Positions 1 to 14,206 of a DNA stretch of 14,206 nt are shown piece by piece. The notes beneath the pieces are model-generated. The model was not told where the DNA came from, ran no database searches, and saw only the letters and a program-made list of their open reading frames with translations. The translations under genes were made by a program, and so were the position numbers. The stretch's first letter is position 1. Every line of letters begins with the position of its first letter. Origin of the DNA: a virus (Duplodnaviria; Heunggongvirae; Uroviricota; Caudoviricetes); IMG/VR virus record IMGVR_UViG_2609459844_000009, positions 1 through 14,206 of that record; one strand, 5' to 3'.

Positions 1-1155
1 ATGCTCACCGTTAAGCAGATTGAAGCAGCAAAGCCGAAAGAAAAACCATACCGCCTTCTCGATGGTAATGGCCTGTACCTTTATGTTCCTGTATCCGGGA
101 AAAAGGTATGGCAGCTTCGCTACAAGATTGACGGTAAGGAGAAAATCCTGACCGTCGGAAAATATCCGCTAATGACTTTGCAGGAGGCAAGAGATAAAGC
201 ATGGACCGCGAGGAAAGACATCTCGGTTGGCATCGATCCGGTAAAAGCGAAAAAGGCTTCGTCTAACAACAATTCCTTTAGTGCGATTTACAAGGAATGG
301 TACGAGCACAAGAAGCAAGTCTGGTCAGTAGGCTATGCAAACGAACTTGCCAAAATGTTTGACGACGACATTTTACCCATCATCGGCGGCCTTGAAATTC
401 AGGATATTGAGCCGATGCAACTGCTGGAAGTAATCCGCAGATTTGAAGATCGCGGTGCAATGGAGCGAGCCAACAAAGCCCGCAGAAGATGCGGAGAGGT
501 TTTCCGTTACGCTATTGTCACCGGAAGGGCTAAATATAACCCGGCACCTGACCTTGCAGACGCCATGAAAGGATACCGCAAGAAGAACTTCCCGTTTCTT
601 CCTGCAGACCAGATCCCGGCATTCAACAAAGCACTGGCAACATTTTCAGGAAGTATCGTATCGCTTATTGCGACTAAAGTTTTACGCTACACCGCCCTAA
701 GAACGAAAGAACTTCGTTCCATGCTATGGAAGAACGTCGATTTTGAAAACAGGATTATCACCATCGACGCCAGTGTGATGAAGGGTCGCAAGATTCATGT
801 AGTACCGATGTCAGACCAGGTAGTTGAACTTCTCACTACGCTAAGCTCAATCACCAAACCAGTATCAGAGTTTGTTTTTGCCGGGCGCAACGATAAGAAG
901 AAGCCAATCTGCGAGAACGCGGTGCTACTTGTGATCAAACAAATCGGCTATGAGGGTCTGGAAAGCGGTCACGGATTCAGGCATGAATTCAGCACGATTA
1001 TGAACGAGCACGAATGGCCTGCTGATGCTATTGAAGTGCAACTGGCACATGCCAACGGCGGATCTGTGCGCGGGATTTACAACCATGCTCAGTATCTCGA
1101 TAAACGCAGAGAAATGATGCAGTGGTGGGCGGACTGGATTGATGAAAAGGCGTGA
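1..1155 (+). CDS. intS: Tyrosine recombinase, P4-family prophage integrase (IntS-like, argW-targeting)
   Basis: 384-aa ORF starting at window position 1. N-terminal arm-binding region (KQIEAAKPKEKPYRLLDGNGLYLYV) typical of P4-type integrases; C-terminal catalytic signature HGFRHEF ... LAH ... RGIYNHAQY. Recalled as near-identical to E. coli KplE1/CPS-53 IntS. A TorI-like excisionase lies at the opposite end of the element, as in KplE1. Confidence 0.9.
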   Translation: MLTVKQIEAAKPKEKPYRLLDGNGLYLYVPVSGKKVWQLRYKIDGKEKILTVGKYPLMTLQEARDKAWTARKDISVGIDPVKAKKASSNNNSFSAIYKEWYEHKKQVWSVGYANELAKMFDDDILPIIGGLEIQDIEPMQLLEVIRRFEDRGAMERANKARRRCGEVFRYAIVTGRAKYNPAPDLADAMKGYRKKNFPFLPADQIPAFNKALATFSGSIVSLIATKVLRYTALRTKELRSMLWKNVDFENRIITIDASVMKGRKIHVVPMSDQVVELLTTLSSITKPVSEFVFAGRNDKKKPICENAVLLVIKQIGYEGLESGHGFRHEFSTIMNEHEWPADAIEVQLAHANGGSVRGIYNHAQYLDKRREMMQWWADWIDEKA

Positions 1156-1244
1156 TGCTTTCCATCTTTCCATTCGGATTCCTCCTACCAGATTTACCTG
1201 GAGAGTGATATAGTTAATCTTTTAAAAAGTTACATGGGCTTTGC

Positions 1245-3080
1245 ATGTCTTCTAAATTTAGGAATGATATTAATGGGCTAAGGGCTCTAGCGGTCGCAGC
1301 TGTTATTATATATCACTTTAATAGCTCTTATATGTCAAGCGGATTTGCAGGAGTGGATGTTTTTTTTGTTATCTCTGGATACCTGATGACATCCATAATA
1401 GTTAATAAATTCAATGATGGTAATTTCAAGCTTTTTGATTTCTACCTATCCAGAGCAAAAAGAATCATACCATCATTAATAATAGTCTGCTTTGCTCTGT
1501 TGATTTTTGGTTTTTTATTAATAGAACCTGGTACTTATCAGCTAATAGGTAAGCATTCGGCAAGCTCTCTTACATTCATATCAAACTTTACCTATCTATT
1601 TGAATCTGGATATTTCGACCAATCATCCAAAGAAAAGTTTTTGCTGCACACTTGGTCACTATCTGTTGAGTGGCAGTTCTACTTGATTTATCCATTTATA
1701 ATAATATCAATTTCTAAGCTGTTTGGCATAACAAGGCTGCGAGCGGCGCTAGCGTCTCTATCGGTGATTGGATTTATAATTTCTTTAATTATATCAAAAG
1801 AAGATATATCTTTATCTTACTATATGTTTTTTAGCAGAGCATGGGAGATGATAGTAGGTGGAGTTATTTTCTTGCTTCCATCAATAATGACGCAGACAAA
1901 GAGACTGACTTTAGAAATAATAGGGTGCATTGGTATAATATTATCATTTTTTGTTTTTACTGAACAAACGTTATGGCCGGGGACTCCAACTCTAATGCCT
2001 GTAATGTTCACTGCATTGGTTATATATGCTAATAATGAAAAATCAATTCTATCTGCAAGGCCAATTCAATTAATCGGTAAGATATCATATTCTATATACT
2101 TGGTGCATTGGGTAATATTAGTATCATTAAAAAAACTGTATATAGACTTTGGGTTTGCTGCATACCTGATATCAACATTAATGCTATCTTTTGCATTATA
2201 TCACTTTGTTGAAAAAAGGCGTAGCTTTGGGAAAATATGGGTTTATTTGTATGTTTTATGTTTTCTCATTTCGCTGGCCGTCTCCTTGAATGGAGTCAGA
2301 TCGCGAACAAGTGGGTCAGATGATTACAGAATGAGCCTTCAGGAGTTCAGAGACAAGTACGAAGGAAGTGATGGAGTAAAGGATAGCCTCAAACCTATCT
2401 TCTTCAACTCTAACGAAGATGACTTTGAATATATATTAATTGGAAGTAGCCATGCAAAGCACTATTACTCATATATAAAATCAAAAGGTTTGAAAGTGGT
2501 GTCGCTTGCGCTTGATGGGTGTAACTCAACAAAAAACAGGTATACCAACTACCGTCCGGAATCATGCGCCCCTCGCTATGATCAAGTGGTAAAATTCATC
2601 AATGACCATCCTGGCAAAAAGGTAGTTTGGGCTACTTTGTGGACTTGGGTTGGGATCCCTAGAGATAGCTCCAAAAATAATAATGAGAGTACTCTAGATG
2701 TGATAAATGAAGAAGTAACTGCATTTATAGGTGACATTAATAAATCAAATAGTGACATTTATCTTATAGGTGACGTTCCGGGCACTAAGAAACTAACATT
2801 TGAATGCATGGCTAAAAATTCGCTGCCTTTGAATAGATATTTCAATTTGGGCGGATGCAGTGACAAGCAAAAGTATGAGGACGATGGTGTTGATGCAACA
2901 CTATCATCCATAGCTAGAAAATATGATAACGTTCACTTTATAGGGGCTGCAAACTCCTTGTGCTCATCAGGTGAATGCATGTTGATATCTGAAGGTAAAC
3001 CAATTTATACAGATTATGGTCACCTTTCAAAATATGGTGCAAATATAGTCGGAAAGTATATATTCAGTAAAGTTAATTAA
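1245..3080 (+). CDS. O-antigen O-acyltransferase, acyltransferase-3 (AT3) membrane domain fused to C-terminal SGNH domain (OafA/Oac-like)
   Basis: 611-aa ORF. N-terminal AT3 hallmarks (GLRALAVAAVIIYHF with conserved Arg and His; VDVFFVISGY) and many predicted TM helices; C-terminal SGNH-like motifs (ILIGSSHAKHY; DYGHLS near the end). Very AT-rich versus neighbours, no strong SD. Occupies the slot where KplE1 carries gtrABC-like genes and Sf6 carries oac. Confidence 0.85.
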   Translation: MSSKFRNDINGLRALAVAAVIIYHFNSSYMSSGFAGVDVFFVISGYLMTSIIVNKFNDGNFKLFDFYLSRAKRIIPSLIIVCFALLIFGFLLIEPGTYQLIGKHSASSLTFISNFTYLFESGYFDQSSKEKFLLHTWSLSVEWQFYLIYPFIIISISKLFGITRLRAALASLSVIGFIISLIISKEDISLSYYMFFSRAWEMIVGGVIFLLPSIMTQTKRLTLEIIGCIGIILSFFVFTEQTLWPGTPTLMPVMFTALVIYANNEKSILSARPIQLIGKISYSIYLVHWVILVSLKKLYIDFGFAAYLISTLMLSFALYHFVEKRRSFGKIWVYLYVLCFLISLAVSLNGVRSRTSGSDDYRMSLQEFRDKYEGSDGVKDSLKPIFFNSNEDDFEYILIGSSHAKHYYSYIKSKGLKVVSLALDGCNSTKNRYTNYRPESCAPRYDQVVKFINDHPGKKVVWATLWTWVGIPRDSSKNNNESTLDVINEEVTAFIGDINKSNSDIYLIGDVPGTKKLTFECMAKNSLPLNRYFNLGGCSDKQKYEDDGVDATLSSIARKYDNVHFIGAANSLCSSGECMLISEGKPIYTDYGHLSKYGANIVGKYIFSKVN

Positions 3081-3087
3081 ACCAAGA

Positions 3088-3114
3088 CCCCTCAATCCTG
3101 AGGGGCTTTTTTTT
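3088..3114. terminator. Bidirectional rho-independent terminator between convergent acyltransferase and tailspike genes
   Basis: Hairpin CCCCTCA-atcc-TGAGGGG followed by T8 on the + strand; the tailspike stop codon overlaps the T tract on the other strand. Confidence 0.8.
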
Positions 3115-5347
3115 ACGCGGTTAATATCCAGCGCTTATCATAATAATGCATTAATCCTTGTGATGTTATTTTCATATGCACGATTGCTTGAGAAAAAGCG
3201 GCGGCAGCAAAACTTACCCTAAGAAATGTTTGTGAGCCGTTATTGTATTTAGATGTGGTAATGCCGGTTAGGTTTTTACTTCCAGCAATCATATTTGACC
3301 AAACATTACTTGAAGCTAAAGTGGCTTGATCTTTTGCTGATACGCTTACCAATATAACTCCACCGGTCTCACCAGTTCCGCCCAATCCATTCTGATTAAT
3401 TGGCATAATCTTTAACTCTGCTGCGATAAAACCCCCCCCCGTATATGAAGCTTCTTCACCAATCGTTGAAATAAGAATATCAATATTTCTTCCATATGGT
3501 ACCAAAACCGTCGCATCTTCAGTTAATACCTGAGTGTATGTGGCGTTTTTAGCTTGGTGTTTAGCGGAAAGAACCACACCATCAGAACCAGTTCGAAAGC
3601 CGATTCCAGTATGTTCCCCGTAGTATTTACCGTAATAATTTATTCCTCTGACGTCAAATTCTGAAATAGCACTTCCGGTTGTGTTTTTTACGAAAATGAA
3701 CTTATCACCGAAGGTGAAACCTCGGCACTGATATTTATTCGTTGGATCGGCAATGTTTTTAAGAAAGGAAATTCCCTTATAGGCTTTAACGTACCCACTT
3801 TCGAAACGAAAGTTCACAGGACCCTTTTGTTCATTTGCTGGTAATTCAACAAAATGAGTAACCGTGGCTCCGCTAGGGTCCTGAATCCAGCAGGAAATGT
3901 TCTCAACGGTTGCAACTGATTGGCCGTCCTCTTCATTGTAATCTGCAAAATCAAGAGCGTGCGTACCATTTATCCCTTCGATACCCATACCTTTGATAGA
4001 AAGAGAGCGGAATCCATAGAACTTATGAGGTAAAGAACAACCATCTGCAGCAATATTATTTACGGCAACGTACATTAATGGCCCCGGAGCCTTTACAGGT
4101 TCATAGGTTTCTCTATCAATCACAGCCCCCCAAAGATAACCAACACCACATTGCGAAGACCAAATTGCAGAGACATCAGTACTTGTTCCCCATATTGCAA
4201 ATCCGTATGTGCAATCATACATAAAAATATTTTGTATGACGCTGACAAATGGACACGATGGGAGCGCAAATTTATAATGGTAGAAGTCTATATTAGTTAG
4301 CTTCCAGTTCTTTCCGCCACCATACGTGGTGCTAGGACCACTTAGCAAAAGTGGACACCCTGTATATTCAGAGTCAGCGTTTCTGAAACCAATATTTTCA
4401 ATATGTAAATTATGACCCCATGAGGACATGTAAAAACCGCCATTTCCTGACGTATAAATCAAACTCTGCCTCGGGTTATCACCCTTAATATTTAAGGTGA
4501 TGCCTTCCCATCTAAACTGGCTAATGTCAATTTGAGTGTTACCAATATATATAGGCTGGTCTATAAAAATAGGAAGTTTAGTTAGATAAGCTTTATTAAG
4601 TGCTAATCCATCATTTGTTACACCTGTTAAATCGACGCCACCCATGCTTGGCGCTTTTGGGTAAGGCGTTCCCTGAATAGTACTTCCATCAATATAAGGA
4701 GCATCCATCCACGCTCCAAACATACGTGGTGTTACGTACCCCTTACCTTGAAGATCACGTTTCCAGCGTTTACCACCCACAGTGACAATGACCATGCCGT
4801 TATCATCTGCAGAAGTAGAATCTGTGAAATCGGCCACAAACAGACCACCACCAGTATCGCCTGATACTGTCGGCTTCATGCCTGTGGTGTGGAAGTCGAC
4901 GAAAATCTTTTGCTGATCTCGCTCAGGCTCAATTGTCCTTAACATTGCTATATCAGGGCATGTCCCGATGTATTTAAGACCGTCTTCCCCTGATAGAGAT
5001 ACTTTAAGCTGATCAGGATCATATTTAAGAACATTCGGAAAATAGAACTGCTGTGCACCATATGCATCATAAACAGCCATAGAATGGCCTTGCACAGTTA
5101 CGAATTTAGCAATCTGCCCATTATATACCGGATATCCAGCGGCGTTAATGATGATTGGTTGCGAAACAGGAATGTGAGAGCCATCTTCGTTCTCCACATA
5201 AACCTGAATCTGGTTTTCAGGATTTACCGGGTCAGTGTCAATTTTACCGATATAAATTTTGCCATTGGCTACGGCTTTAAAAGAACGAGCCATAGTGAAG
5301 AGTTGCGATGGCATACTCACTACAACATTGGCTGTAATGTCTGTCAT
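3113..5347 (-). CDS. Tailspike protein: P22 gp9-like N-terminal head-binding domain with divergent receptor-binding/enzymatic body
   Basis: 744-aa ORF. First ~110 residues ([11 protein letters not shown] ... [33 protein letters not shown] ... [12 protein letters not shown] ... NVLKYDPDQ) closely match the recalled P22 gp9 head-binding domain; the rest is unrelated to P22 gp9 by eye and Gly/Thr/Asn-rich as expected for a beta-helix. SD GGAG ~9 nt upstream of ATG. Confidence 0.85.
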
Positions 5348-5483
5348 TTAATTTGCTCCAGATGCAAGGAATCGCCGCAGCATGGCTACGGTTGGTATTT
5401 GTTTGGTTTTTGAACTACGAAAATTTCGTAGTGCTATCCATCAAGGCCATCGCCGCTTAGTTGCTGCGGTGAATTTTGGGCAT

Positions 5484-5506
5484 AAAAAAACCCAGCCGAA
5501 GCTGGG
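5484..5506 (-). terminator. Rho-independent terminator downstream of ant (minus strand)
   Basis: On the minus strand: CCCAGC-ttcg-GCTGGG followed by T7. Lies between the ant stop and the tailspike start, like the terminator after ant in the P22 immI operon. Confidence 0.75.
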
Positions 5507-5525
5507 TCGTTGCGTTGGTTATCTG

Positions 5526-6428
5526 TCAGTAGTTATGTACTGAAGGAGGTAATTCTTTATTCTTAAGTCTCATCCATGCGGAAAGATTCGTTGGTCCGTC
5601 TGGCTCATTGATATCAACATCTCGTGAGTGATTGATTAAAACGTCTCTCGCTATATCGATAATACGGGAGAACTCATAACCGCAGTCATGACATCTGCCG
5701 GAATAGTTCGATTGAATTTGTTTCAGCGCCGGATACAGTTCGCGGAATAATGCCTGTGAACGGTTAGCATAATCCCATAGCCATACAAGGCTGTTTGCTT
5801 CTTTTTCAGAAAGCTCGTTGGTTTTCTTCTCTTGTTTGCCGATGAACTCGCCTTCAAGCACTACCCTGTGGATGTACTCTACGGCTTGCGGTATCTGAGA
5901 TGCATCAAGCTCTTCAATACTTTCCACATTGAAACGCTGATGAATCATTGCATAAGCTTCTGGGTACATTAGATGCTTTTTGCTGACCAGCATATTTACA
6001 GCATCACGAAGCGGAGTCCTGTCATCAACAGATGTTTTCTTACGTGCATTTTCTGCCTTTCCCTTTGTCCAGTAGTCATGCAGCACAGTAAAGCATTCTT
6101 CCTGGTACTGAATCAGTTTATCGCGGATGTCAGCACGAACTTTCTCAGGGTTGATGCTGAACAGCCATCCATTTAACTTCTTCAAAGGAAGGCAGAGTAG
6201 CTTACGAAGCTTACCATCAGCGGCAACCATATTCATATGAATACAGTTGAACTTATCTAGTTGTTTCATAAGTTTTTGTTGCTGAGTACCCCAGCTCATT
6301 CCGAGGTTTTCAACGATTGGCTTCATCGCAACATATGCAACTCCGGCAGCCATGGCGGTGATAATCTGCTGACCATTGAAAGGCACGTAAGAGGTGTTCA
6401 CTGCTTCTAAAATTGCTATACTATTCAT
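5526..6428 (-). CDS. ant: Antirepressor Ant (P22 immI-type)
   Basis: Start chosen at the internal ATG ([22 protein letters not shown]...) preceded by GGAGA; 300 aa, the length of P22 Ant. Position (arc ... ant, then tailspike, same strand) matches P22 immI. The ORF-track start at 6458 is a TTG without an SD. Confidence 0.8.
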
Positions 6429-6490
6429 GTTGGTTTTTCTCCAAGGATTTACCGACAACCGAAGCCCTGACTGTTACCGCAGTTGGGGCT

Positions 6491-6760
6491 TCAACGTTTT
6501 TCCACTTCATTTTGAATTTGCTTAAGTAGCATATTTGTCTCGTCAAGCCTCTTGTTAATACGGTCAAGGCTTTCTACTAAATCGTTATGTGCATGTGATA
6601 CTTCGTAATTTGAGACTGATTTCTTTTCCTCTATCGTCTTTGTCAATCGTTCCCCTGATTGATACATATTGATTAACGATGTAAAAATCACGAGCAAGCA
6701 AACTACAATGATTGCGCCAGACAAAAATTGTAAAGAACGATCAAGCAATGACACCTTCAT
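6491..6760 (-). CDS. Small membrane-anchored coiled-coil protein, function unknown (inserted between arc and ant)
   Basis: 89 aa with one N-terminal hydrophobic helix (LQFLSGAIIVVCLLVIFTSLI) then a charged helical region. Start ATG overlaps the arc stop (ATGA) and is preceded by GAGGGG, indicating translational coupling to arc. P22 has no gene at this position as far as I recall. Confidence 0.65.
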   Translation of the reverse strand: MKVSLLDRSLQFLSGAIIVVCLLVIFTSLINMYQSGERLTKTIEEKKSVSNYEVSHAHNDLVESLDRINKRLDETNMLLKQIQNEVEKR

Positions 6761-6909
6761 ACCGTAATCCCCTCTCTCTTCAGACTGTCCAGCAATCGCT
6801 TAATCACTTCCGAGTTAAACGACCGGCATTCTTCTTTGGCCTTTCCTGTAATCGCATCTTTTAGCGACTGAGGCATTCTCACCAAAATTCTGCTAACTTC
6901 TTTTTCCAT
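6757..6909 (-). CDS. arc: Arc-like ribbon-helix-helix repressor
   Basis: 50 aa from the internal ATG (MEKEVSRILVRMPQSLKDAITGKAKEECRSFNSEVIKRLLDSLKREGITV); aligns with recalled P22 Arc (RxPxxLxDxxxxxAxEExRSxNSE ... KxEG). Divergent from mnt. Confidence 0.8.
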   Translation of the reverse strand: MEKEVSRILVRMPQSLKDAITGKAKEECRSFNSEVIKRLLDSLKREGITV

Positions 6910-7018
6910 ATCGCCACCACGTGAGTTATTGTGAATCACAAACATATCACCGTGACTATATCAAGTCAAAATTTTTTTGAATACACTGTGATATCAATGT
7001 GATTATCACGGTGTAAGT
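6910..7018. promoter_or_regulatory. immI divergent promoter/operator region between arc and mnt
   Basis: Contains CACGTG (6917-6922), TGTGAATCACA (6930-6940), ATCACCGTGAC (6946-6956) and its inverted partner ATCACGGTGTA (7005-7015), and the perfect palindrome TGATATCA (6988-6995). The CACCGTG/CACGGTG core resembles the centre of the recalled P22 Mnt operator (CCACGGTGG). Confidence 0.6.
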
Positions 7019-7273
7019 ATGACGAAGGTTAGAGACATAGCCCCATATAGCGTAAGAATGCCAGATAGCCTCAAGCGCGACCTGACCATAAGAGCATCGA
7101 AAAACGGACGCTCATTAAATTCAGAAATAGTTATGATCTTGCAAGCTGCTATTGATGAAGAAAAATCACCAAGATCAATAGAAGGTTTTGCTCAACAAGA
7201 ATCTGAAAAATTTAGGGAGGCTCTTCTTAAGACTCTCAGCAGCATGTACGGAGAAGATAAAAAACCCACCTGA
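7019..7273 (+). CDS. mnt: Mnt-like ribbon-helix-helix repressor
   Basis: 84 aa; N-terminal RMPDSLKRDLTIRASKNGRSLNSEIV matches the recalled P22 Mnt RHH motif (RMPxxxxxxLxxRAxxNGRSxNSE). Divergent from arc. Confidence 0.8.
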   Translation: MTKVRDIAPYSVRMPDSLKRDLTIRASKNGRSLNSEIVMILQAAIDEEKSPRSIEGFAQQESEKFREALLKTLSSMYGEDKKPT

Positions 7274-7285
7274 CGGTGGGTTTTT
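7259..7285. terminator. Bidirectional rho-independent terminator shared by mnt and the convergent 330-aa gene
   Basis: A6 - CCCACC-tgac-GGTGGG - T5; the mnt stop codon lies in the loop and the stop of the minus-strand gene (7287) abuts the T tract. Confidence 0.8.
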
Positions 7286-7286
7286 C

Positions 7287-8279
7287 TTATTCTTTATCTT
7301 TTAAGTCTATGGTTCTTTGCCCAATAACCTTTTCATCTATGTATTTCTCATACTCTTCTCGAGTATCAGAAACCATTGCAATACCAGTAACCTTACCTAT
7401 TTGGGTTCTAAGAGCCTTAACTCCAACCTCTGATAAAAACTGGTGTATTTTATCGTTTTTGCTGCCTTTCTCTTCTTTTGAAGTTTTTGCTAAATTAAAT
7501 ACCTTTCCTTCACTTCTGGCTAATGGGTAATAAATGTGATCTATCGTAAGATATTTAAACGCCCATGGTCGCCCTCTAACTGGTTTGTCTATACCATACA
7601 AACGATACCAATGCTCATAAAGTTCAGGGGTGAACTCTCTTTCATACTCACGAGCCTCTTCAGCAACATATCGCTTATATGCTTGAATTACCTCTTCTTT
7701 TGTTCTGTCATACCCTGCCAAAGCATAAACAAGCCCCTGAATGCCCGCCTTGGCTGATGCATCAATAATGATTCTGGCTTGCTTAGCAATCCCTTCCTGA
7801 CTGGAAAGCAACTTACCTTCAGCTTTAGCATTAGAGATTGCTCGACATAAATCAATTAATATTGTTACATCGTAGCCATGTATTACAGGATTAGCTGGAG
7901 TGTTCGTGCCCGCCTGTTTGTATTGAAAAATAAGAGGATTTTCAAGTTTTGCCCTTAATTCATGCCCAATATACTGAGAAATAGTTTTCCCCTGAATAAA
8001 CTTTGGCAACCTGCTGCCACCTTCGCCAAGACCAATCGCTTCTCCCATGCCTCTCTGGCTAATAACGGCAGTTTTGTTATCATCATTTAACACATAGCAC
8101 TCAACATCAATCCCGAATTCATGCTGGAACGATCCCTTATGCGTGGCAATTAATGGTTTATCCTTCCATCTTGCAGCCGCTGCTTTCTTTGCTATTTCAG
8201 AACGCTGCTCTTTAGTCAGCGACTTTGCGCGAGCGATCCCGCCCTTAGCTTTCCCTTCACTACTTTTCTTTTCTGTCAT
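7287..8279 (-). CDS. Hypothetical protein with Lys/Ala-rich basic N-terminal tail; unknown function, possible DNA-binding regulator or exclusion/defence factor
   Basis: 330-aa ORF (MTEKKSSEGKAKGGIARAKSLTKEQRSEIAKKAAAARWKDK...). AGGTG ~9 nt upstream of ATG; TTGCTT-18 bp-TATAAT sigma70-like promoter on the minus strand (+ strand 8312-8341). AT-rich relative to early genes. I could not assign a family; there is a vague resemblance to phage Bro-N/P63C-type regions that I cannot substantiate. Confidence 0.75.
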   Translation of the reverse strand: MTEKKSSEGKAKGGIARAKSLTKEQRSEIAKKAAAARWKDKPLIATHKGSFQHEFGIDVECYVLNDDNKTAVISQRGMGEAIGLGEGGSRLPKFIQGKTISQYIGHELRAKLENPLIFQYKQAGTNTPANPVIHGYDVTILIDLCRAISNAKAEGKLLSSQEGIAKQARIIIDASAKAGIQGLVYALAGYDRTKEEVIQAYKRYVAEEAREYEREFTPELYEHWYRLYGIDKPVRGRPWAFKYLTIDHIYYPLARSEGKVFNLAKTSKEEKGSKNDKIHQFLSEVGVKALRTQIGKVTGIAMVSDTREEYEKYIDEKVIGQRTIDLKDKE

Positions 8280-8434
8280 AATGCAAGCACCTTGTTGTGA
8301 TATATGCTTGCATTATATACACTGTACACACATACAAGCAAGCATAAAAACAAAACAAAATGCTTGCATTACAACCGCGCTACTCCAACTACACATTATC
8401 ATCTGGTATCCTGCACAAAACTAAGGAGGTTGGT
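8280..8434. promoter_or_regulatory. Divergent promoter region with four copies of the 10-bp palindrome ATGC(AA/TT)GCAT (putative operator array)
   Basis: Sites at 8281-8290 (ATGCAAGCAc), 8304-8313 (ATGCTTGCAT), 8336-8345 (AAGCAAGCAT) and 8360-8369 (ATGCTTGCAT); centre-to-centre spacings ~23, 32 and 24 bp. They overlap the RBS/start, -10 and -35 of the 330-aa gene's predicted promoter. Confidence 0.6.
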
Positions 8435-8764
8435 GTGCTTGAATGGTTTCTGTTGGCTGCATTAGTCGTTTCTGGTTTGGTGTATGAGTATCGAATGCAC
8501 TCTCTAACAAAAAAAATAGGAATTCTAGAAAACGAATATTGTGCTCTCAAATCCTCACTGGAACGTGAGCAAGGGGACTTAAAAATCTCTCTGTCTAGCA
8601 TTGAGCGTTCTATAGAGAGCTTAGAGGATAAGGTTGATCGTATAAAGAATGAGGATATTCATGATATTAAGGACGACATATCCTTCTTAAAATCTTGGTT
8701 GAAAAATGTTGGGAAAATTGCCACATCAACACGAGATAAGCTCAATCCATCCATGGATGACTAA
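8435..8764 (+). CDS. Small membrane-anchored coiled-coil protein, function unknown
   Basis: GTG start 5 nt after a perfect AGGAGG SD (8424-8429); ~109 aa with N-terminal hydrophobic helix (LEWFLLAALVVSGLVY) then a charged heptad-like helical region. AT-rich. The upstream ATG at 8360 lies inside operator site 4 with no SD, so I prefer the GTG. Confidence 0.55.
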   Translation: MLEWFLLAALVVSGLVYEYRMHSLTKKIGILENEYCALKSSLEREQGDLKISLSSIERSIESLEDKVDRIKNEDIHDIKDDISFLKSWLKNVGKIATSTRDKLNPSMDD

Positions 8765-9016
8765 TTACTCCTGTGCCATTCCGCTTAGCGATGCCACAAT
8801 TCCAGCTCTTGCTAAACGCTGGAACTCTTCGTTTCCTAGTGCCTCGCGTATTGCTTTTACGGCGGCCTTATTTGCCATAAATCTGCGTTCCGCCGCCGCT
8901 AATGCACCATCACTTGCCCCAACCTTAACTGCCTTTGTTGCCTCTTGAACAGCCTTTTCAATAGCGTAACGACCGCTTCTAGTTGCGGATAATTTCGCTA
9001 TCGCTCCTTTTGCCAT
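8765..9016 (-). CDS. Ala-rich small ORF, possibly the C-terminal remnant of a larger (late/ejection-type?) gene
   Basis: 83 aa from the first ATG, but the frame stays open upstream to ~9142 with no start codon and no convincing SD, suggesting a 5'-truncated remnant. Its stop codon abuts the stop of the convergent gene at 8764. Confidence 0.3.
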   Translation of the reverse strand: MAKGAIAKLSATRSGRYAIEKAVQEATKAVKVGASDGALAAAERRFMANKAAVKAIREALGNEEFQRLARAGIVASLSGMAQE

Positions 9017-9061
9017 TGCATCAATTGCCCCACCTGCAGCGCCAACGGGCCATACGCGCCA

Positions 9062-9556
9062 GTTATTTCTATTGGGGCAGTATTCTTTGACCCGAATACC
9101 GGAGAAACAGGAGAAGAGTTCTCGGTAAATATCTCGCTTGAGTCATCAATGCGATATCGGGCGCGTCCTGACGCTTCAACGATTTTATGGTGGCTGGAAC
9201 AGAGTGAAGAAGCCAGAAAATCGCTAACCAGCAACACTCAGGAGCTTTCAACGGCTCTTTCATGGTTATCTGAATTCATCATAAAGAACGCTAACCACAA
9301 ATTCGTTCAGGTTTGGGGGAATGGAGCATCATTTGACTGCGTTATTCTCCGCAACAGTTATTCGCTGACAGGGCAGCCAGTTCCGTGGCAGTGGTGGAAT
9401 GACCGCGACGTAAGAACAATCGTCGAACTTGGGAAGGTAATAGGATTCGACCCTAAGCGAGATATGCCATTCAAAGGAACTCGCCACAACGCGCTTGATG
9501 ATGCCATTCACCAAGCCAAATACGTTTCAGCGATCTGGAAAAAGTTAGCTAAATAA
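9062..9556 (+). pseudogene. DnaQ/DEDD-like 3'-5' exonuclease (Rv2179c-like phage exoribonuclease family), 5'-truncated
   Basis: Frame is open from 8903; first ATG at 9149. Translation from ~9062 (VISIGAVFFDPNTGETGEEFSVNI ... WWLEQSEEARKSL ... VQVWGNGASFDCVILRNS ... GTRHNALDDAIHQAKYV) matches this family as I recall it, including the motif III H-x4-D. The expected N-terminal DxE motif (I.D.ET.G) is absent in all three forward frames upstream. Confidence 0.5.
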
Positions 9557-12098: not shown

Positions 12099-12163
12099 TT
12101 TATTTATTCATATATTAAAACAATGTAACCAATATTCGAATTGAAGAACTGAAAGAACACCAA

Positions 12164-12184
12164 GCCGCCTGATGGCGGTTTTTT
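12164..12184 (+). terminator. Rho-independent terminator ending the early-gene array
   Basis: GCCGCC-tgat-GGCGG followed by T6. Confidence 0.7.
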
Positions 12185-12194
12185 ATTGCCTGAT

Positions 12195-12210
12195 TTGCAG
12201 GTTCGATTCC
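12195..12210 (+). other. tRNA-Arg (argW) T-arm-derived 16-nt fragment just upstream of torI
   Basis: TTGCAGGTTCGATTCC matches the T-stem/T-loop part of E. coli argW as I recall it (...AATTGCAGGTTCGATTCCTGCAGGGGACACCA); similarity ends at 12211. Confidence 0.5.
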
Positions 12211-12229
12211 CTATTCGGAGATAGCACTC

Positions 12230-12430
12230 ATGCAACACGAACTACAACCTGATTCACTGGTTGATTTGAAATTCATCATGGCTGATACTGGCTTCGGTAA
12301 GACCTTCATCTATGACCGGATTAAGTCCGGCGACCTGCCAAAAGCCAAAGTTATCCACGGGCGAGCAAGATGGTTATATCGTGACCATTGTGAATTCAAA
12401 AATAAGCTCTTAAGCCGCGCCAATGGGTAA
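12230..12430 (+). CDS. torI: Excisionase / recombination directionality factor, TorI-like (AlpA/Xis family winged-helix)
   Basis: 66 aa (MQHELQPDSLVDLKFIMADTGFGKTFIYDRIKSGDLPKAKVIHGRARWLYRDHCEFKNKLLSRANG), recalled as matching KplE1 TorI. It sits at the opposite end of the prophage from int and next to the att remnant, as in KplE1. Confidence 0.8.
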   Translation: MQHELQPDSLVDLKFIMADTGFGKTFIYDRIKSGDLPKAKVIHGRARWLYRDHCEFKNKLLSRANG

Positions 12431-12503
12431 AATAGCGGGTAAAATATTTCTCACATCTAAAAAACACCATTCCAATCAATCCCCTGCTGCTTCAAGTAGA
12501 TGT

Positions 12504-12518
12504 CTGCAGGGGACACCA
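12504..12518 (+). other. argW 3'-terminal fragment (…CTGCAGGGGACACCA): candidate attR core / right prophage boundary
   Basis: Exact 15-nt match to the recalled 3' end of tRNA-Arg argW including the CCA end, with no upstream tRNA body; non-coding host-like DNA follows. Confidence 0.6.
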
Positions 12519-12958: not shown

Positions 12959-14206
12959 CTATATTGCTGAAGGTACAGGCGTTTCCATAACTATTTGCTC
13001 GCGTTTTTTACTCAAGAAGAAAATGCCAAATAGCAACATCAGGCAGACAATACCCGAAATTGCGAAGAAAACTGTCTGGTAGCCTGCGTGGTCAAAGAGT
13101 ATCCCAGTCGGCGTTGAAAGCAGCACAATCCCAAGCGAACTGGCAATTTGAAAACCAATCAGAAAGATCGTCGACGACAGGCGCTTATCAAAATTTGCCA
13201 CGCTGTATTTGAAGACGGATATGACACAAAGTGGAACCTCAATAGCATGTAACAGCTTCACTAATGAAATAATCCAGGGGTTAACGAACAGCGCGCAGGA
13301 AAGGATACGCAACGCCATAATCACAACACCGATAAGTAATGCATTTTTTGGCCCTACCCGATTCACAAAGAAAGGAATAATCGCCATGCATAGCGCTTCG
13401 AGTACCACCTGGAATGAGTTGAGATAACCATACAGGCGCGTTCCTACATCGTGTGATTCGAATAAACCTGCATAAAAGACAGGAAAAAGTTGTTGATCAA
13501 AAATGTTATAGAAAGACCACGTCCCCACAATAAATATGACGAAAACCCAGAAGTTTCGATCCTTGAAAACTGCGATAAAATCCTCTTTTTTTACCCCTCC
13601 CGCATCCGCCGCTACGCACTGGTGATCCTTATCTTTAAAACACATGTTGATCATCATAAATACAGCGCCAAATAGCGAGACCAACCAGAAGTTGATATGG
13701 GGACTGATACTAAAAAATATGCCGGCAAAGAACGCGCCAATAGCATAGCCAAAAGATCCCCAGGCGCGCGCTGTTCCATATTCGAAATGAAAATTTCGCG
13801 CCATTTTTTCGGTGAAGCTGTCAAGCAAACCGCATCCCGCCAGATACCCCAGGCCAAAAAAGAGCGCCCCCAGAATTAGACCTACAGAAAAATTGCTTTG
13901 CAGTAACGGTTCATAAACGTAAATCATAAACGGTCCGGTCAAGACCAGGATGAAACTCATACACCAGATGAGCGGTTTCTTCAGACCGAGTTTATCCTGA
14001 ACGATGCCGTAGAACATCATAAATAGAATGCTGGTAAACTGGTTGACCGAATAAAGTGTACCTAATTCCGTCCCTGTCAACCCTAGATGTCCTTTCAGCC
14101 AAATAGCGTATAACGACCACCACAGCGACCAGGAAATAAAAAAGAGAAATGAGTAACTGGATGCAAAACGATAGTACGCATTTCTGAATGGAATATTCAG
14201 TGCCAT
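12959..14206 (-). CDS. cscB: Sucrose:H+ symporter, LacY-family MFS permease (CscB)
   Basis: 415-aa ORF with 12-TM MFS architecture; N-terminus (MALNIPFRNAYYRFASSYSFLFFISWSLWWSLYAIWLKGHLGL) recalled as E. coli CscB. The csc locus is known to lie next to argW in sucrose-positive E. coli. The window ends exactly at its start codon. Confidence 0.85.
   Translation of the reverse strand: MALNIPFRNAYYRFASSYSFLFFISWSLWWSLYAIWLKGHLGLTGTELGTLYSVNQFTSILFMMFYGIVQDKLGLKKPLIWCMSFILVLTGPFMIYVYEPLLQSNFSVGLILGALFFGLGYLAGCGLLDSFTEKMARNFHFEYGTARAWGSFGYAIGAFFAGIFFSISPHINFWLVSLFGAVFMMINMCFKDKDHQCVAADAGGVKKEDFIAVFKDRNFWVFVIFIVGTWSFYNIFDQQLFPVFYAGLFESHDVGTRLYGYLNSFQVVLEALCMAIIPFFVNRVGPKNALLIGVVIMALRILSCALFVNPWIISLVKLLHAIEVPLCVISVFKYSVANFDKRLSSTIFLIGFQIASSLGIVLLSTPTGILFDHAGYQTVFFAISGIVCLMLLFGIFFLSKKREQIVMETPVPSAI

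What the first reader, a model, noticed from the sequence alone, without database searches (positions are those of the whole stretch)
1245..5347. Convergent O-antigen acyltransferase and tailspike with a non-P22 receptor-binding body: swapped receptor-modification / receptor-recognition cassette
The element carries an AT3-SGNH acyltransferase in the slot where KplE1 has gtrABC-like genes and Sf6 has oac, right beside a tailspike whose head-binding domain is P22 gp9-like but whose body is unrelated by eye. In Sf6 and P22 the conversion enzyme modifies the O-antigen that the phage's own tailspike recognises, giving superinfection exclusion and serotype conversion. The acyltransferase is strongly AT-rich (about 30-35% G+C by hand count), suggesting separate horizontal origin. 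The pair predicts a specific O-antigen acylation phenotype in the host.
Basis: partly seen in the sequence, partly recalled or inferred. Interest (0 to 1): 0.55.

Follow-up and report, generated by a model that had tools for sequence, protein, structure and literature searches.

The report
Prophage acetyltransferase–tailspike surface-sugar cassette
A defective P22-like prophage of E. coli carries, between its integrase and tail genes, a 3.8-kb two-gene unit (a membrane sugar O-acetyltransferase plus the sugar-recognising body of the phage tailspike); this is a new allele of a well-known serotype-conversion arrangement, and the same unit also turns up in unrelated phage backbones.

Summary
An intact AT3-SGNH acyltransferase gene (1245-3080, +) lies convergent with an intact 744-aa tailspike gene (3113-5347, -). 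A conserved hairpin terminator sits in the 32-nt gap between them.

Only tailspike residues 1-~115 are P22/Sf6-like. The rest is a beta-helix depolymerase body, 15% identical to its nearest solved structure (CBA120 TSP2).

Homology to other E. coli argW/IntS prophages stops at 1150 and resumes at ~5004. Window 1185-4990 recurs as one gapless 85%-identical block in a YeP4-like podophage contig whose flanks are unrelated, so this is a discrete mobile cassette.

All residues shown to be essential in OafA are conserved in the acyltransferase. Its G+C is 35.4%, but other genes found in this slot run 29-42%, so the low G+C says little about origin.

The architecture matches Sf6 oac, BTP1 gtrC, CUS-3 neuO and Uetakevirus acetylases: a new member of a known kind.

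Three things are not shown:
- which glycan is targeted,
- that the enzyme acetylates it,
- that acetylation blocks this tailspike.

Two caveats apply. Tailspike relatives at 72-74% identity pair with unrelated AT3-only acyltransferases. And the prophage in this window is a deletion remnant that cannot make virions.

The parts
1..1155 (+). IntS-type tyrosine integrase. It forms the conserved left flank of the cassette. In the source contig the argW/yfdC side lies just upstream of the window.
   Evidence: Pfam Phage_integrase, Phage_int_M and Arm-DNA-bind_3. About 96% nt identity to int of Sf6, HK620, CUS-3 and 2621 E. coli genomes. Homology to those elements stops at 1150-1152.
1185..1244 (+). 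Upstream leader that belongs to the cassette. It contains an extended -10-like TGATATAGT at 1206-1214, the inferred promoter of the acyltransferase gene.
   Evidence: The shared block with L021 starts at 1185. The TGATATAGT is conserved there while the sequence upstream of 1185 is unrelated. The consensus promoter scan did not call it, because there is no -35 at the right spacing. Promoter function is inferred only.
1245..3080 (+). AT3-SGNH fused membrane O-acyltransferase (611 aa), OafA/OafB architecture. It is identical to NCBI E. coli protein P0256.
   Evidence: Pfam PF01757 plus PF19040. PHROG 6705 'O-antigen acetylase', 1.4e-137, full length. Functional residues R13, H24, G33, F34, D38, R70, R73, S113, E323, S402, D590 and H593 are conserved. 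A profile of homologues aligns to the OafB SGNH structure 6se1. Hydrophobic segments end at about aa 353.
3088..3112 (+). Intrinsic terminator in the 32-nt gap between the convergent genes: CCCCTCA-ATCC-TGAGGGG followed by a T-rich tail, C then T8 (CTTTTTTTT), on the + strand. The same hairpin reads on the - strand with a weaker tail.
   Evidence: Terminator scan and sequence. In L021 the stem is conserved while the loop differs. Sf6 has an annotated terminator in the same position.
3113..5003 (-). Tailspike receptor-binding body (aa ~116-744). It comprises a small N-proximal domain (aa ~118-213) shared with CBA120 TSP2 and WceF, a right-handed parallel beta-helix, and a C-terminal beta domain.
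5004..5347 (-). Tailspike N-terminal head-binding domain (aa 1-~114). It belongs to the P22-like backbone, not to the cassette.
   Evidence: PF09008 over aa 1-113. phmmer aligns the first 116 residues to Sf6 gp14 (7sg7) at E 1e-64, nearly identical by eye. Nucleotide homology to Sf6 and 611R6 resumes at 5004-5009.

Best explanation
This is the surface-polysaccharide 'specificity module' of a P22-like (Lederbergvirus-type) prophage integrated at argW.

The tailspike joins a backbone-specific adaptor, the head-binding domain, to an exchangeable beta-helix depolymerase body. That body binds, and probably cleaves, a particular host O-antigen, or less probably a capsule.

The convergent moron gene has its own promoter and terminator and is expressed from the prophage. 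Its product works in two steps. The AT3 membrane domain passes an acetyl group from cytoplasmic acetyl-CoA across the inner membrane. The periplasmic SGNH domain (Ser402/Asp590/His593) transfers it onto the same polysaccharide. The result is serotype conversion and blocked adsorption of phages that carry this tailspike body.

The leader, acyltransferase gene, terminator and tailspike body (window ~1185-4990) form a 3.8-kb unit. This unit recombines into different phage backbones at the adaptor/body junction.

Shown: domain architecture, intact catalytic residues, beta-helix fold, module boundaries, presence of the unit in several backbones, purifying selection on both genes.

Inferred: the identity of the glycan, acetyl as the acyl group, that enzyme and tailspike act on the same glycan, and that acetylation blocks binding.
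For: - Architecture and catalytic motifs.
- Full-length match to the phage 'O-antigen acetylase' family: PHROG 6705. 42-43% identity to the Uetakevirus acetylases of Tyrion and PAS61, which also sit next to the tailspike. 29.5% identity, E 6e-53, to the gene annotated gtrC / O-polysaccharide acetyltransferase in Salmonella phage BTP1.
- Beta-helix depolymerase fold of the tailspike body.
- Breakpoints at 1150 and ~5004 against Sf6, 611R6 and E. coli prophages.
- One gapless 3806-nt block (1185-4990, 85.3% identity) shared with L021. There the neighbours are holin and endolysin on one side, and a different tailspike N-terminus plus a YeP4-like terminase on the other.
- A third context, L010: acyltransferase 80% identical, tailspike C-terminus 87% identical, with a UmuD-like gene upstream.
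- Synonymous exceeds non-synonymous change in both genes: 157:79 and 164:64.
- Terminator stem conserved.
- The int-tailspike slot holds other glycan-modifying genes in sister prophages: Sf6 oac, EpsG, a small 'acyltransferase' ORF beside a 981-aa tailspike, and AT3-only enzymes.
- The literature places seroconversion genes near int/att (PMC8787464). The OafA/OafB mechanism is described in PMC7448272.
Against: - No experiment or serotype information links either protein to a defined glycan.
- The closest tailspike relatives in P22-like prophages (72-74% identity) pair with unrelated AT3-only acyltransferases. The pairing is therefore replaceable, and adjacency could be positional rather than functional.
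- Sharing between backbones could reflect only one or two transfer events followed by common descent.
- Block I of the SGNH domain reads G-S-S rather than G-D-S, although 5 of 22 homologues do the same.
- The promoter was not called by the consensus scan.
- The prophage here is defective, so any exclusion benefit accrues to the host only.
Confidence: 0.62

Rival explanations
1. The two genes are neighbours only because the int-tailspike interval is a recombination-permissive moron slot. On this view the acyltransferase decorates some surface glycan for the host's benefit (immune evasion, resistance to other phages), with no specific relation to what this tailspike recognises.
For: The slot holds many unrelated genes, or none, in sister prophages. 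Tailspike relatives at 72-74% identity carry unrelated AT3-only enzymes. The acyltransferase stays intact in many decayed prophages where the tailspike has lost its head-binding domain or is cut by IS1. Related enzymes occur without any tailspike in the Dryocola and Proteus chromosomes.
Against: The same leader-enzyme-terminator-body block, with the same ends, is found in at least two other contexts, with co-divergence and purifying selection on both genes. In the characterised analogues, Sf6 (oac, from established knowledge and the annotation) and Hf4s (gtr cluster), the conversion gene does target the phage's own receptor. The look-up by exact acyltransferase sequence is biased towards intact enzyme genes.
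Confidence: 0.22
2. The target of both proteins is a capsular (K-antigen) or other exopolysaccharide rather than O-antigen. CUS-3 is the precedent: an endosialidase tailspike is paired with the K1 O-acetyltransferase NeuO at the same argW site.
For: The structural neighbours of the body include many capsule depolymerases and WceF. One phage carrying a 52%-identical body (YX22) was isolated on the APEC strain IMT5155, which from memory is an O2:K1 strain. Sister prophages in APEC O1:K1 and O2:K1 strains, and L031/L032, carry a 981-aa tailspike and a small 'acyltransferase' ORF in this slot; its identity with neuO is my recollection, not tested here.
Against: The top structural hit is CBA120 TSP2 from an E. 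coli O157:H7 phage; that it is an O157 O-antigen hydrolase is established knowledge, not shown here. All annotated phage relatives of the enzyme are named O-antigen acetylases. The functionally studied AT3-SGNH enzymes of enterobacteria (OafA, OafB) act on O-antigen (PMC7448272).
Confidence: 0.13
3. The pair is a decaying, non-functional relic. The prophage is dead and neither gene does anything now.
For: In this window gp16 is cut to a fragment and all morphogenesis, lysis and immunity genes are deleted. Other carriers show further decay.
Against: Both ORFs are full length and 99.99% identical at DNA level to those of an apparently complete prophage (L008). All catalytic residues are intact. 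The enzyme gene has its own terminator and conserved leader, and it is the part that persists across independently decayed prophages.
Confidence: 0.03

Closest known systems
Shigella phage Sf6 oac-gene 14 (tailspike) region
   Same: The backbone is the same: int 96% and head-binding domain 88% nt identical. The order is the same: int, then a convergent O-acetyltransferase and tailspike with a terminator in the gap. The attP/TorI region is also shared (window 12125-12518, 98.7%).
   Different: Sf6 Oac is a 333-aa AT3-only enzyme that shares only the FFxISG/RxxR motif region with this protein. The Sf6 tailspike body (endorhamnosidase) has no sequence similarity beyond aa ~116.
Salmonella OafA / OafB (family II GtrC, e.g. 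phage BTP1 gtrC)
   Same: AT3-SGNH fusion of ~610 aa. The R-X10-H, GF-x-GVD and RxxR motifs, S112 and E325 equivalents and the Ser/Asp/His triad are all conserved. BTP1 is a Lederbergvirus (P22-type) phage.
   Different: Only 29.5% identity to BTP1 GtrC. The profile match to the OafB SGNH structure is weak (E 0.0016). Block I reads GSS. Acceptor sugar unknown.
Uetakevirus (epsilon15-like) tailspike + O-antigen acetylase pairs (Enterobacter phage Tyrion gp22/gp23, Escherichia phage PAS61)
   Same: These are the closest enzyme relatives in isolated phages: 42-43% identity, full length. They lie directly next to the tailspike, and in Tyrion they are convergent with holin/endolysin beyond, as in L021.
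   Different: Different virion backbone and a different tailspike body. In PAS61 the two genes are co-directional.
CBA120 TSP2 (PDB 5w6p / 6w4q), tailspike of an E. coli O157:H7 phage
   Different: 15% identity over the helix. Different adaptor (Ackermannviridae branched spike complex). Specificity not transferable.
CUS-3 prophage neuO + endosialidase tailspike (argW, E. coli K1)
   Same: Same integrase family (97% nt) and same idea: a polysaccharide O-acetyltransferase gene beside the tailspike that recognises that polysaccharide. This comes from established knowledge of CUS-3; the locus shape is seen.
   Different: NeuO is a soluble hexapeptide-repeat enzyme acting on K1 capsule, not an AT3-SGNH membrane protein.

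Membership tests
AT3-SGNH fused carbohydrate O-acyltransferases (OafA/OafB type) | N-terminal Acyl_transf_3 (PF01757) membrane domain above the Pfam gathering score | tested here: met
   106.8 bits against a cut-off of 31, aa 7-319. Hydrophobic segments up to aa ~353.
AT3-SGNH fused carbohydrate O-acyltransferases (OafA/OafB type) | C-terminal fused SGNH domain (PF19040) with Ser (block I) and Asp-x-x-His (block V) triad | tested here: met
   87.8 bits against a cut-off of 27, aa 393-604. S402, D590 and H593 are invariant in 22 homologues and align to the GDS and DxxH blocks of OafB 6se1. Block I is G-S-S here.
AT3-SGNH fused carbohydrate O-acyltransferases (OafA/OafB type) | AT3 residues essential in OafA: R14, H25, F35, D39, R69, R72, S112, E325 | tested here: met
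   The equivalents R13, H24, F34, D38, R70, R73, S113 and E323 are present and conserved in 21 or 22 of 22 homologues. They were mapped by motif and position, not by direct alignment to the OafA sequence, which I did not have.
AT3-SGNH fused carbohydrate O-acyltransferases (OafA/OafB type) | Demonstrated O-acetylation of a defined sugar of the O-unit | not testable with these tools
   Needs LPS NMR/MS or serology.
P22-like (Lederbergvirus) tailspike | N-terminal head-binding domain PF09008 | tested here: met
   222 bits, aa 1-113. Aligns to Sf6 and P22 structures.
P22-like (Lederbergvirus) tailspike | Right-handed parallel beta-helix receptor-binding body | tested here: met
P22 gp9 / Sf6 gp14 endorhamnosidase body | Sequence homology of the body to P22 or Sf6 endorhamnosidase | tested here: not met
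   phmmer alignments to P22 and Sf6 chains end at aa 116-137.
Phage serotype-conversion moron at the int-tailspike slot (Sf6 oac type) | Located between int and the tailspike gene of a P22-like prophage, transcribed independently (own promoter and terminator) | tested here: inconclusive
   Position met. Terminator found and conserved. Promoter only inferred from a conserved extended -10 and not called by the scan.
Phage serotype-conversion moron at the int-tailspike slot (Sf6 oac type) | Product modifies the receptor used by the phage's own tailspike and blocks re-adsorption | not testable with these tools
   Supported only indirectly, by co-transfer of the two genes.
gtrABC glucosylation cassette (P22, KplE1/CPS-53) | GtrA flippase and GtrB bactoprenol glucosyltransferase genes | tested here: not met
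   The only ORF of at least 60 aa with any domain hit between int and the tailspike is the acyltransferase; the one other ORF of that size (1820-2011, -, 63 aa) lies antisense inside it.

The most novel reading that the evidence does not exclude
The leader-acetyltransferase-terminator-tailspike-body block may be a co-selected, self-contained 'recognise and mask' cassette. On this reading it moves as a unit between unrelated temperate phage backbones: a P22-like phage, a YeP4-like podophage, and a third context next to a UmuD-like gene. Receptor specificity and the matching superinfection shield would then be inherited together. After prophage decay the host keeps only the masking half.
Probability: 0.4. 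Interest if true: 0.45.

Novelty: new member of a known kind. Interest (0 to 1): 0.3.

Why it matters
It predicts an unrecorded O-acetyl (or other acyl) decoration on the surface polysaccharide of a set of E. coli, and at least one Shigella flexneri, isolates. This is relevant to serotyping, vaccine epitopes and phage host-range prediction.

It also gives a clean natural example of the receptor-binding body and its matching receptor-modifying enzyme being exchanged as one block at the adaptor/body junction of tailspikes. That is useful for engineering phage host range and for annotating prophage 'specificity modules'.

It does not reveal a new mechanism.

Tried and rejected
- Megablast and blastn of the cassette against 5426 complete E. 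coli genomes and 50,697 phage records found no close copy. So no serotype or host-range annotation could be transferred.
- A PDB sequence search with the single enzyme sequence found nothing. Only a profile reached OafB, and weakly.
- I tried to infer tailspike specificity from phages that carry related bodies. The best are only 46-52% identical, come from hosts of different or unknown serotype, and some belong to multi-spike phages. I rejected this as uninformative.
- I considered that L021 might be an assembly chimera joining a podophage to a P22-like prophage through the shared body. I rejected this because the enzyme gene's far side in L021 is holin/endolysin, not int, and the tailspike ORF is intact.
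- I considered that L009's '564-aa' acyltransferase was a variant. It is only a different start-codon call on DNA identical to the window.
- My early note that P0001 is the exact protein was wrong. P0001 differs by 2 residues; P0256 is exact.
- AT-richness as evidence of a particular donor was rejected. The other slot genes measured are 29-42% G+C.
- The serotype of the source strain (GCA_000703525.1) could not be obtained with these tools.
Full report
**What is there**

The window is 100% identical to E. coli assembly GCA_000703525.1, contig JNPF01000047.1 (L007). It starts at the ATG of an IntS-type integrase (1-1155). The next two ORFs are the finding:
- a 611-aa protein on the + strand (1245-3080),
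- a 744-aa protein on the - strand (3113-5347), convergent with the first and separated from it by 32 nt.

Pfam places Acyl_transf_3 (106.8 bits) and the AT3-associated SGNH domain (87.8 bits) on the first protein. On the second it places only the P22 head-binding domain (222 bits, aa 1-113).

Downstream lie ant (5526-6428) with its sar antisense RNA (6429-6496), arc/mnt-like genes and a P63C-domain gene. This is the immI region of a P22-like phage.

**The acyltransferase**

Pearson et al. (PMC7448272) identified the residues whose mutation abolishes or strongly reduces OafA activity: R14, H25, F35, D39, R69, R72, S112, E325, and the SGNH triad S412, D587, H590.

- The equivalents here are R13, H24, F34, D38, R70, R73, S113, E323, S402, D590 and H593.
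- Each is conserved in 21 or 22 of 22 homologues that span 38-80% identity.
- A profile of those homologues aligns to the crystal structure of the OafB SGNH domain (6se1, E 0.0016). The GDS and DxxH blocks are in register.
- Block I reads G-S-S rather than G-D-S, as it does in 5 of the 22 homologues.
- Hydrophobic segments stop at about aa 353, consistent with a membrane domain followed by a periplasmic domain.
- The protein matches PHROG 6705 ('O-antigen acetylase') over its full length at 1.4e-137.
- It is 42-43% identical to the acetylases of the Uetakeviruses Tyrion and PAS61 and 29.5% identical to BTP1 GtrC.
- With Sf6 Oac it shares only the motif region.

**The tailspike**

- Against PDB sequences only aa 1-116/137 align to Sf6 and P22.
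- Residues 118-213 match a small domain of CBA120 TSP2 and of Pantoea WceF.
- An AlphaFold2 model built from 26 homologues is confident over the body.
- The body is therefore an ordinary right-handed beta-helix polysaccharide-binding or polysaccharide-cleaving module with no close solved relative.
- In isolated phages the best body relatives are only 46-52% identical. They occur in Kagunavirus-, Ackermannviridae- and ~40-kb phage genomes with other N-terminal adaptors. Specificity cannot be read off from them.

**Is it a swapped cassette?**

Yes.
- Int, the head-binding domain and ant are ~96% identical to thousands of E. coli argW prophages and to Sf6, HK620, CUS-3 and 611R6. The interval between them matches none of 5426 complete E. 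coli genomes at megablast level.
- Pairwise BLAST puts the breakpoints at 1150-1152 and 5004-5009. The latter is tailspike codon ~114, the classical adaptor/body junction.
- A Logan contig (L021) carries an 87%-identical acyltransferase and a tailspike whose body from aa 116 is 89% identical.
- At DNA level this is one gapless 3806-nt block, window 1185-4990, 85.3% identical, with unrelated flanks.
- In L021 the block sits between holin/endolysin on one side and, on the other, a different tailspike N-terminus, a terminase 78% identical to Yersinia phages YeP4-6, and a T7-type internal virion protein. That is a different phage backbone.
- A third contig (L010) has an 80%-identical enzyme and an 87%-identical tailspike C-terminus, with a UmuD-like gene upstream.
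- Within the block, synonymous changes outnumber non-synonymous ones in both genes (157:79 and 164:64). The terminator stem (3088-3105) and an extended -10-like TGATATAGT (1206-1214) are conserved.

**Limits on the 'matched pair' reading**

- P22-like tailspikes 72-74% identical to this one (P0123, P0124; L012, L013, L016, L017) lie at the same locus. They sit next to 332-aa AT3-only acyltransferases that are unrelated to this enzyme and only 55% identical to each other.
- In other sister prophages the slot holds an EpsG-family gene, nothing, or a small 'acyltransferase' ORF beside a 981-aa tailspike.
- So tailspikes of this family are regularly accompanied by some acyltransferase, but the partner is replaceable. 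The cross-backbone sharing may rest on only a few transfer events.
- Which glycan is involved, whether the acyl group is acetyl, and whether modification blocks this tailspike are all inferred by analogy. The analogues are Sf6, Hf4s, Kapi1 and others and the OafA/OafB mechanism.

**G+C**

The enzyme gene is 35.4% G+C, against 47.8% for int. The other genes measured from this slot and the enzyme's relatives elsewhere are also mostly low:
- AT3-only enzymes 29-31%,
- EpsG 32%,
- Tyrion acetylase 35%,
- Dryocola homologue 35%,
- Proteus homologue 27%,
- Sf6 oac 42%.

Because low G+C is so common among these genes, it does not point to a particular donor. The enzyme also travels with the tailspike body rather than separately.

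**State of the prophage and population picture**

An apparently complete prophage (L008) matches window 1-9044 at 99.99% identity. Beyond 9044 the window jumps from the 3' end of gene 16 into the early-left operon.
- All morphogenesis, lysis, replication and immunity genes are therefore deleted.
- The remnant ends at an Sf6-like attP/TorI segment (12125-12518), next to cscB (12959-14206).

The exact enzyme (P0256) and near-identical alleles occur in many E. coli draft genomes and in one Shigella flexneri.

For allele P0255, all ten distinct contexts examined have a damaged tailspike. Homology to the window ends at 4986, so the head-binding domain is missing, or it ends at 4562 next to IS1. This suggests hosts keep the enzyme after the phage dies. 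The caveat is that the look-up required an intact enzyme sequence.

**Verdict**

This is a new allele and combination within a well-known kind of lysogenic-conversion/tailspike module (Sf6 oac, BTP1 gtrC, CUS-3 neuO, Uetakevirus acetylases). The mildly interesting extra is the clean evidence that enzyme and tailspike body move together between phage backbones.

Noticed in passing
window 8765-9556 (joint at ~9043/9044): Large internal deletion of the prophage. The last ~93 codons of P22 gene-16 homologue (- strand) abut codon ~12 of an Rv2179c-like exonuclease gene of the early-left operon. An intact relative (L008) matches the window only up to 9044 at 99.99% identity, so the deletion looks recent. 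L009 shares the same joint.
   Followed up: partly
window 12125-12518 and 12959-14206: The right end of the remnant is an Sf6-like TorI/xis and attP-core segment (98.7% to Sf6). It is followed by a LacY-family permease gene with a PfkB kinase gene beyond it in the source contig; from memory these look like the cscB/cscK sucrose genes that lie near argW in some E. coli, but I did not check this.
   Followed up: partly
window 6429-6496 (+): sar antisense RNA (Rfam RF00262, 93.6 bits) overlapping the start of ant (5526-6428, -). Ant therefore starts at the ATG at 6428, not at the upstream TTG listed by the ORF finder.
   Followed up: yes
window 6491-6760 (-), 7287-8279 (-), 8435-8764 (+): The immI/sieA neighbourhood differs from related prophages (L001, L002). 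Where those have a 193-aa ORF and SieA, this element and L008 have an 89-aa predicted membrane/coiled-coil protein, a 330-aa P63C-domain protein and a 109-aa ORF. Possibly alternative exclusion or defence cargo.
   Followed up: no
L021 1-8562 (Logan ERR11042089 contig): Phage contig with no megablast match in 50,697 phage records. Gene order: T7-type internal virion protein, terS-like gene, terL (78% to Yersinia phages YeP4-6), tailspike, convergent O-antigen acetylase, holin, endolysin. It carries the same cassette as the window.
   Followed up: partly
L033-L042 (E. coli drafts and metagenomes carrying allele P0255): Series of independently decayed argW prophages that keep int and an intact acyltransferase. 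The tailspike either lacks its head-binding domain (homology to the window stops exactly at 4986, the module junction) or homology ends at 4562 next to an IS1 InsA fragment.
   Followed up: partly
L024 (Dryocola sp. CP150452.1, 3047675-3061510): A 53%-identical AT3-SGNH gene, preceded by a second AT3-only gene, sits at the same mlaA-yfdC chromosomal position but with no integrase or tailspike. Possibly a fully domesticated remnant of a similar prophage.
   Followed up: no
L027/L028 (E. coli, GCA_024685585.1): Another small integrase-bearing element with a Tail_spike_N-type tailspike, a 45%-identical AT3-SGNH gene and a SASA (sialate O-acetylesterase-like) gene in a row. This is a different flavour of tailspike-plus-acyl-modification grouping.
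   Followed up: no
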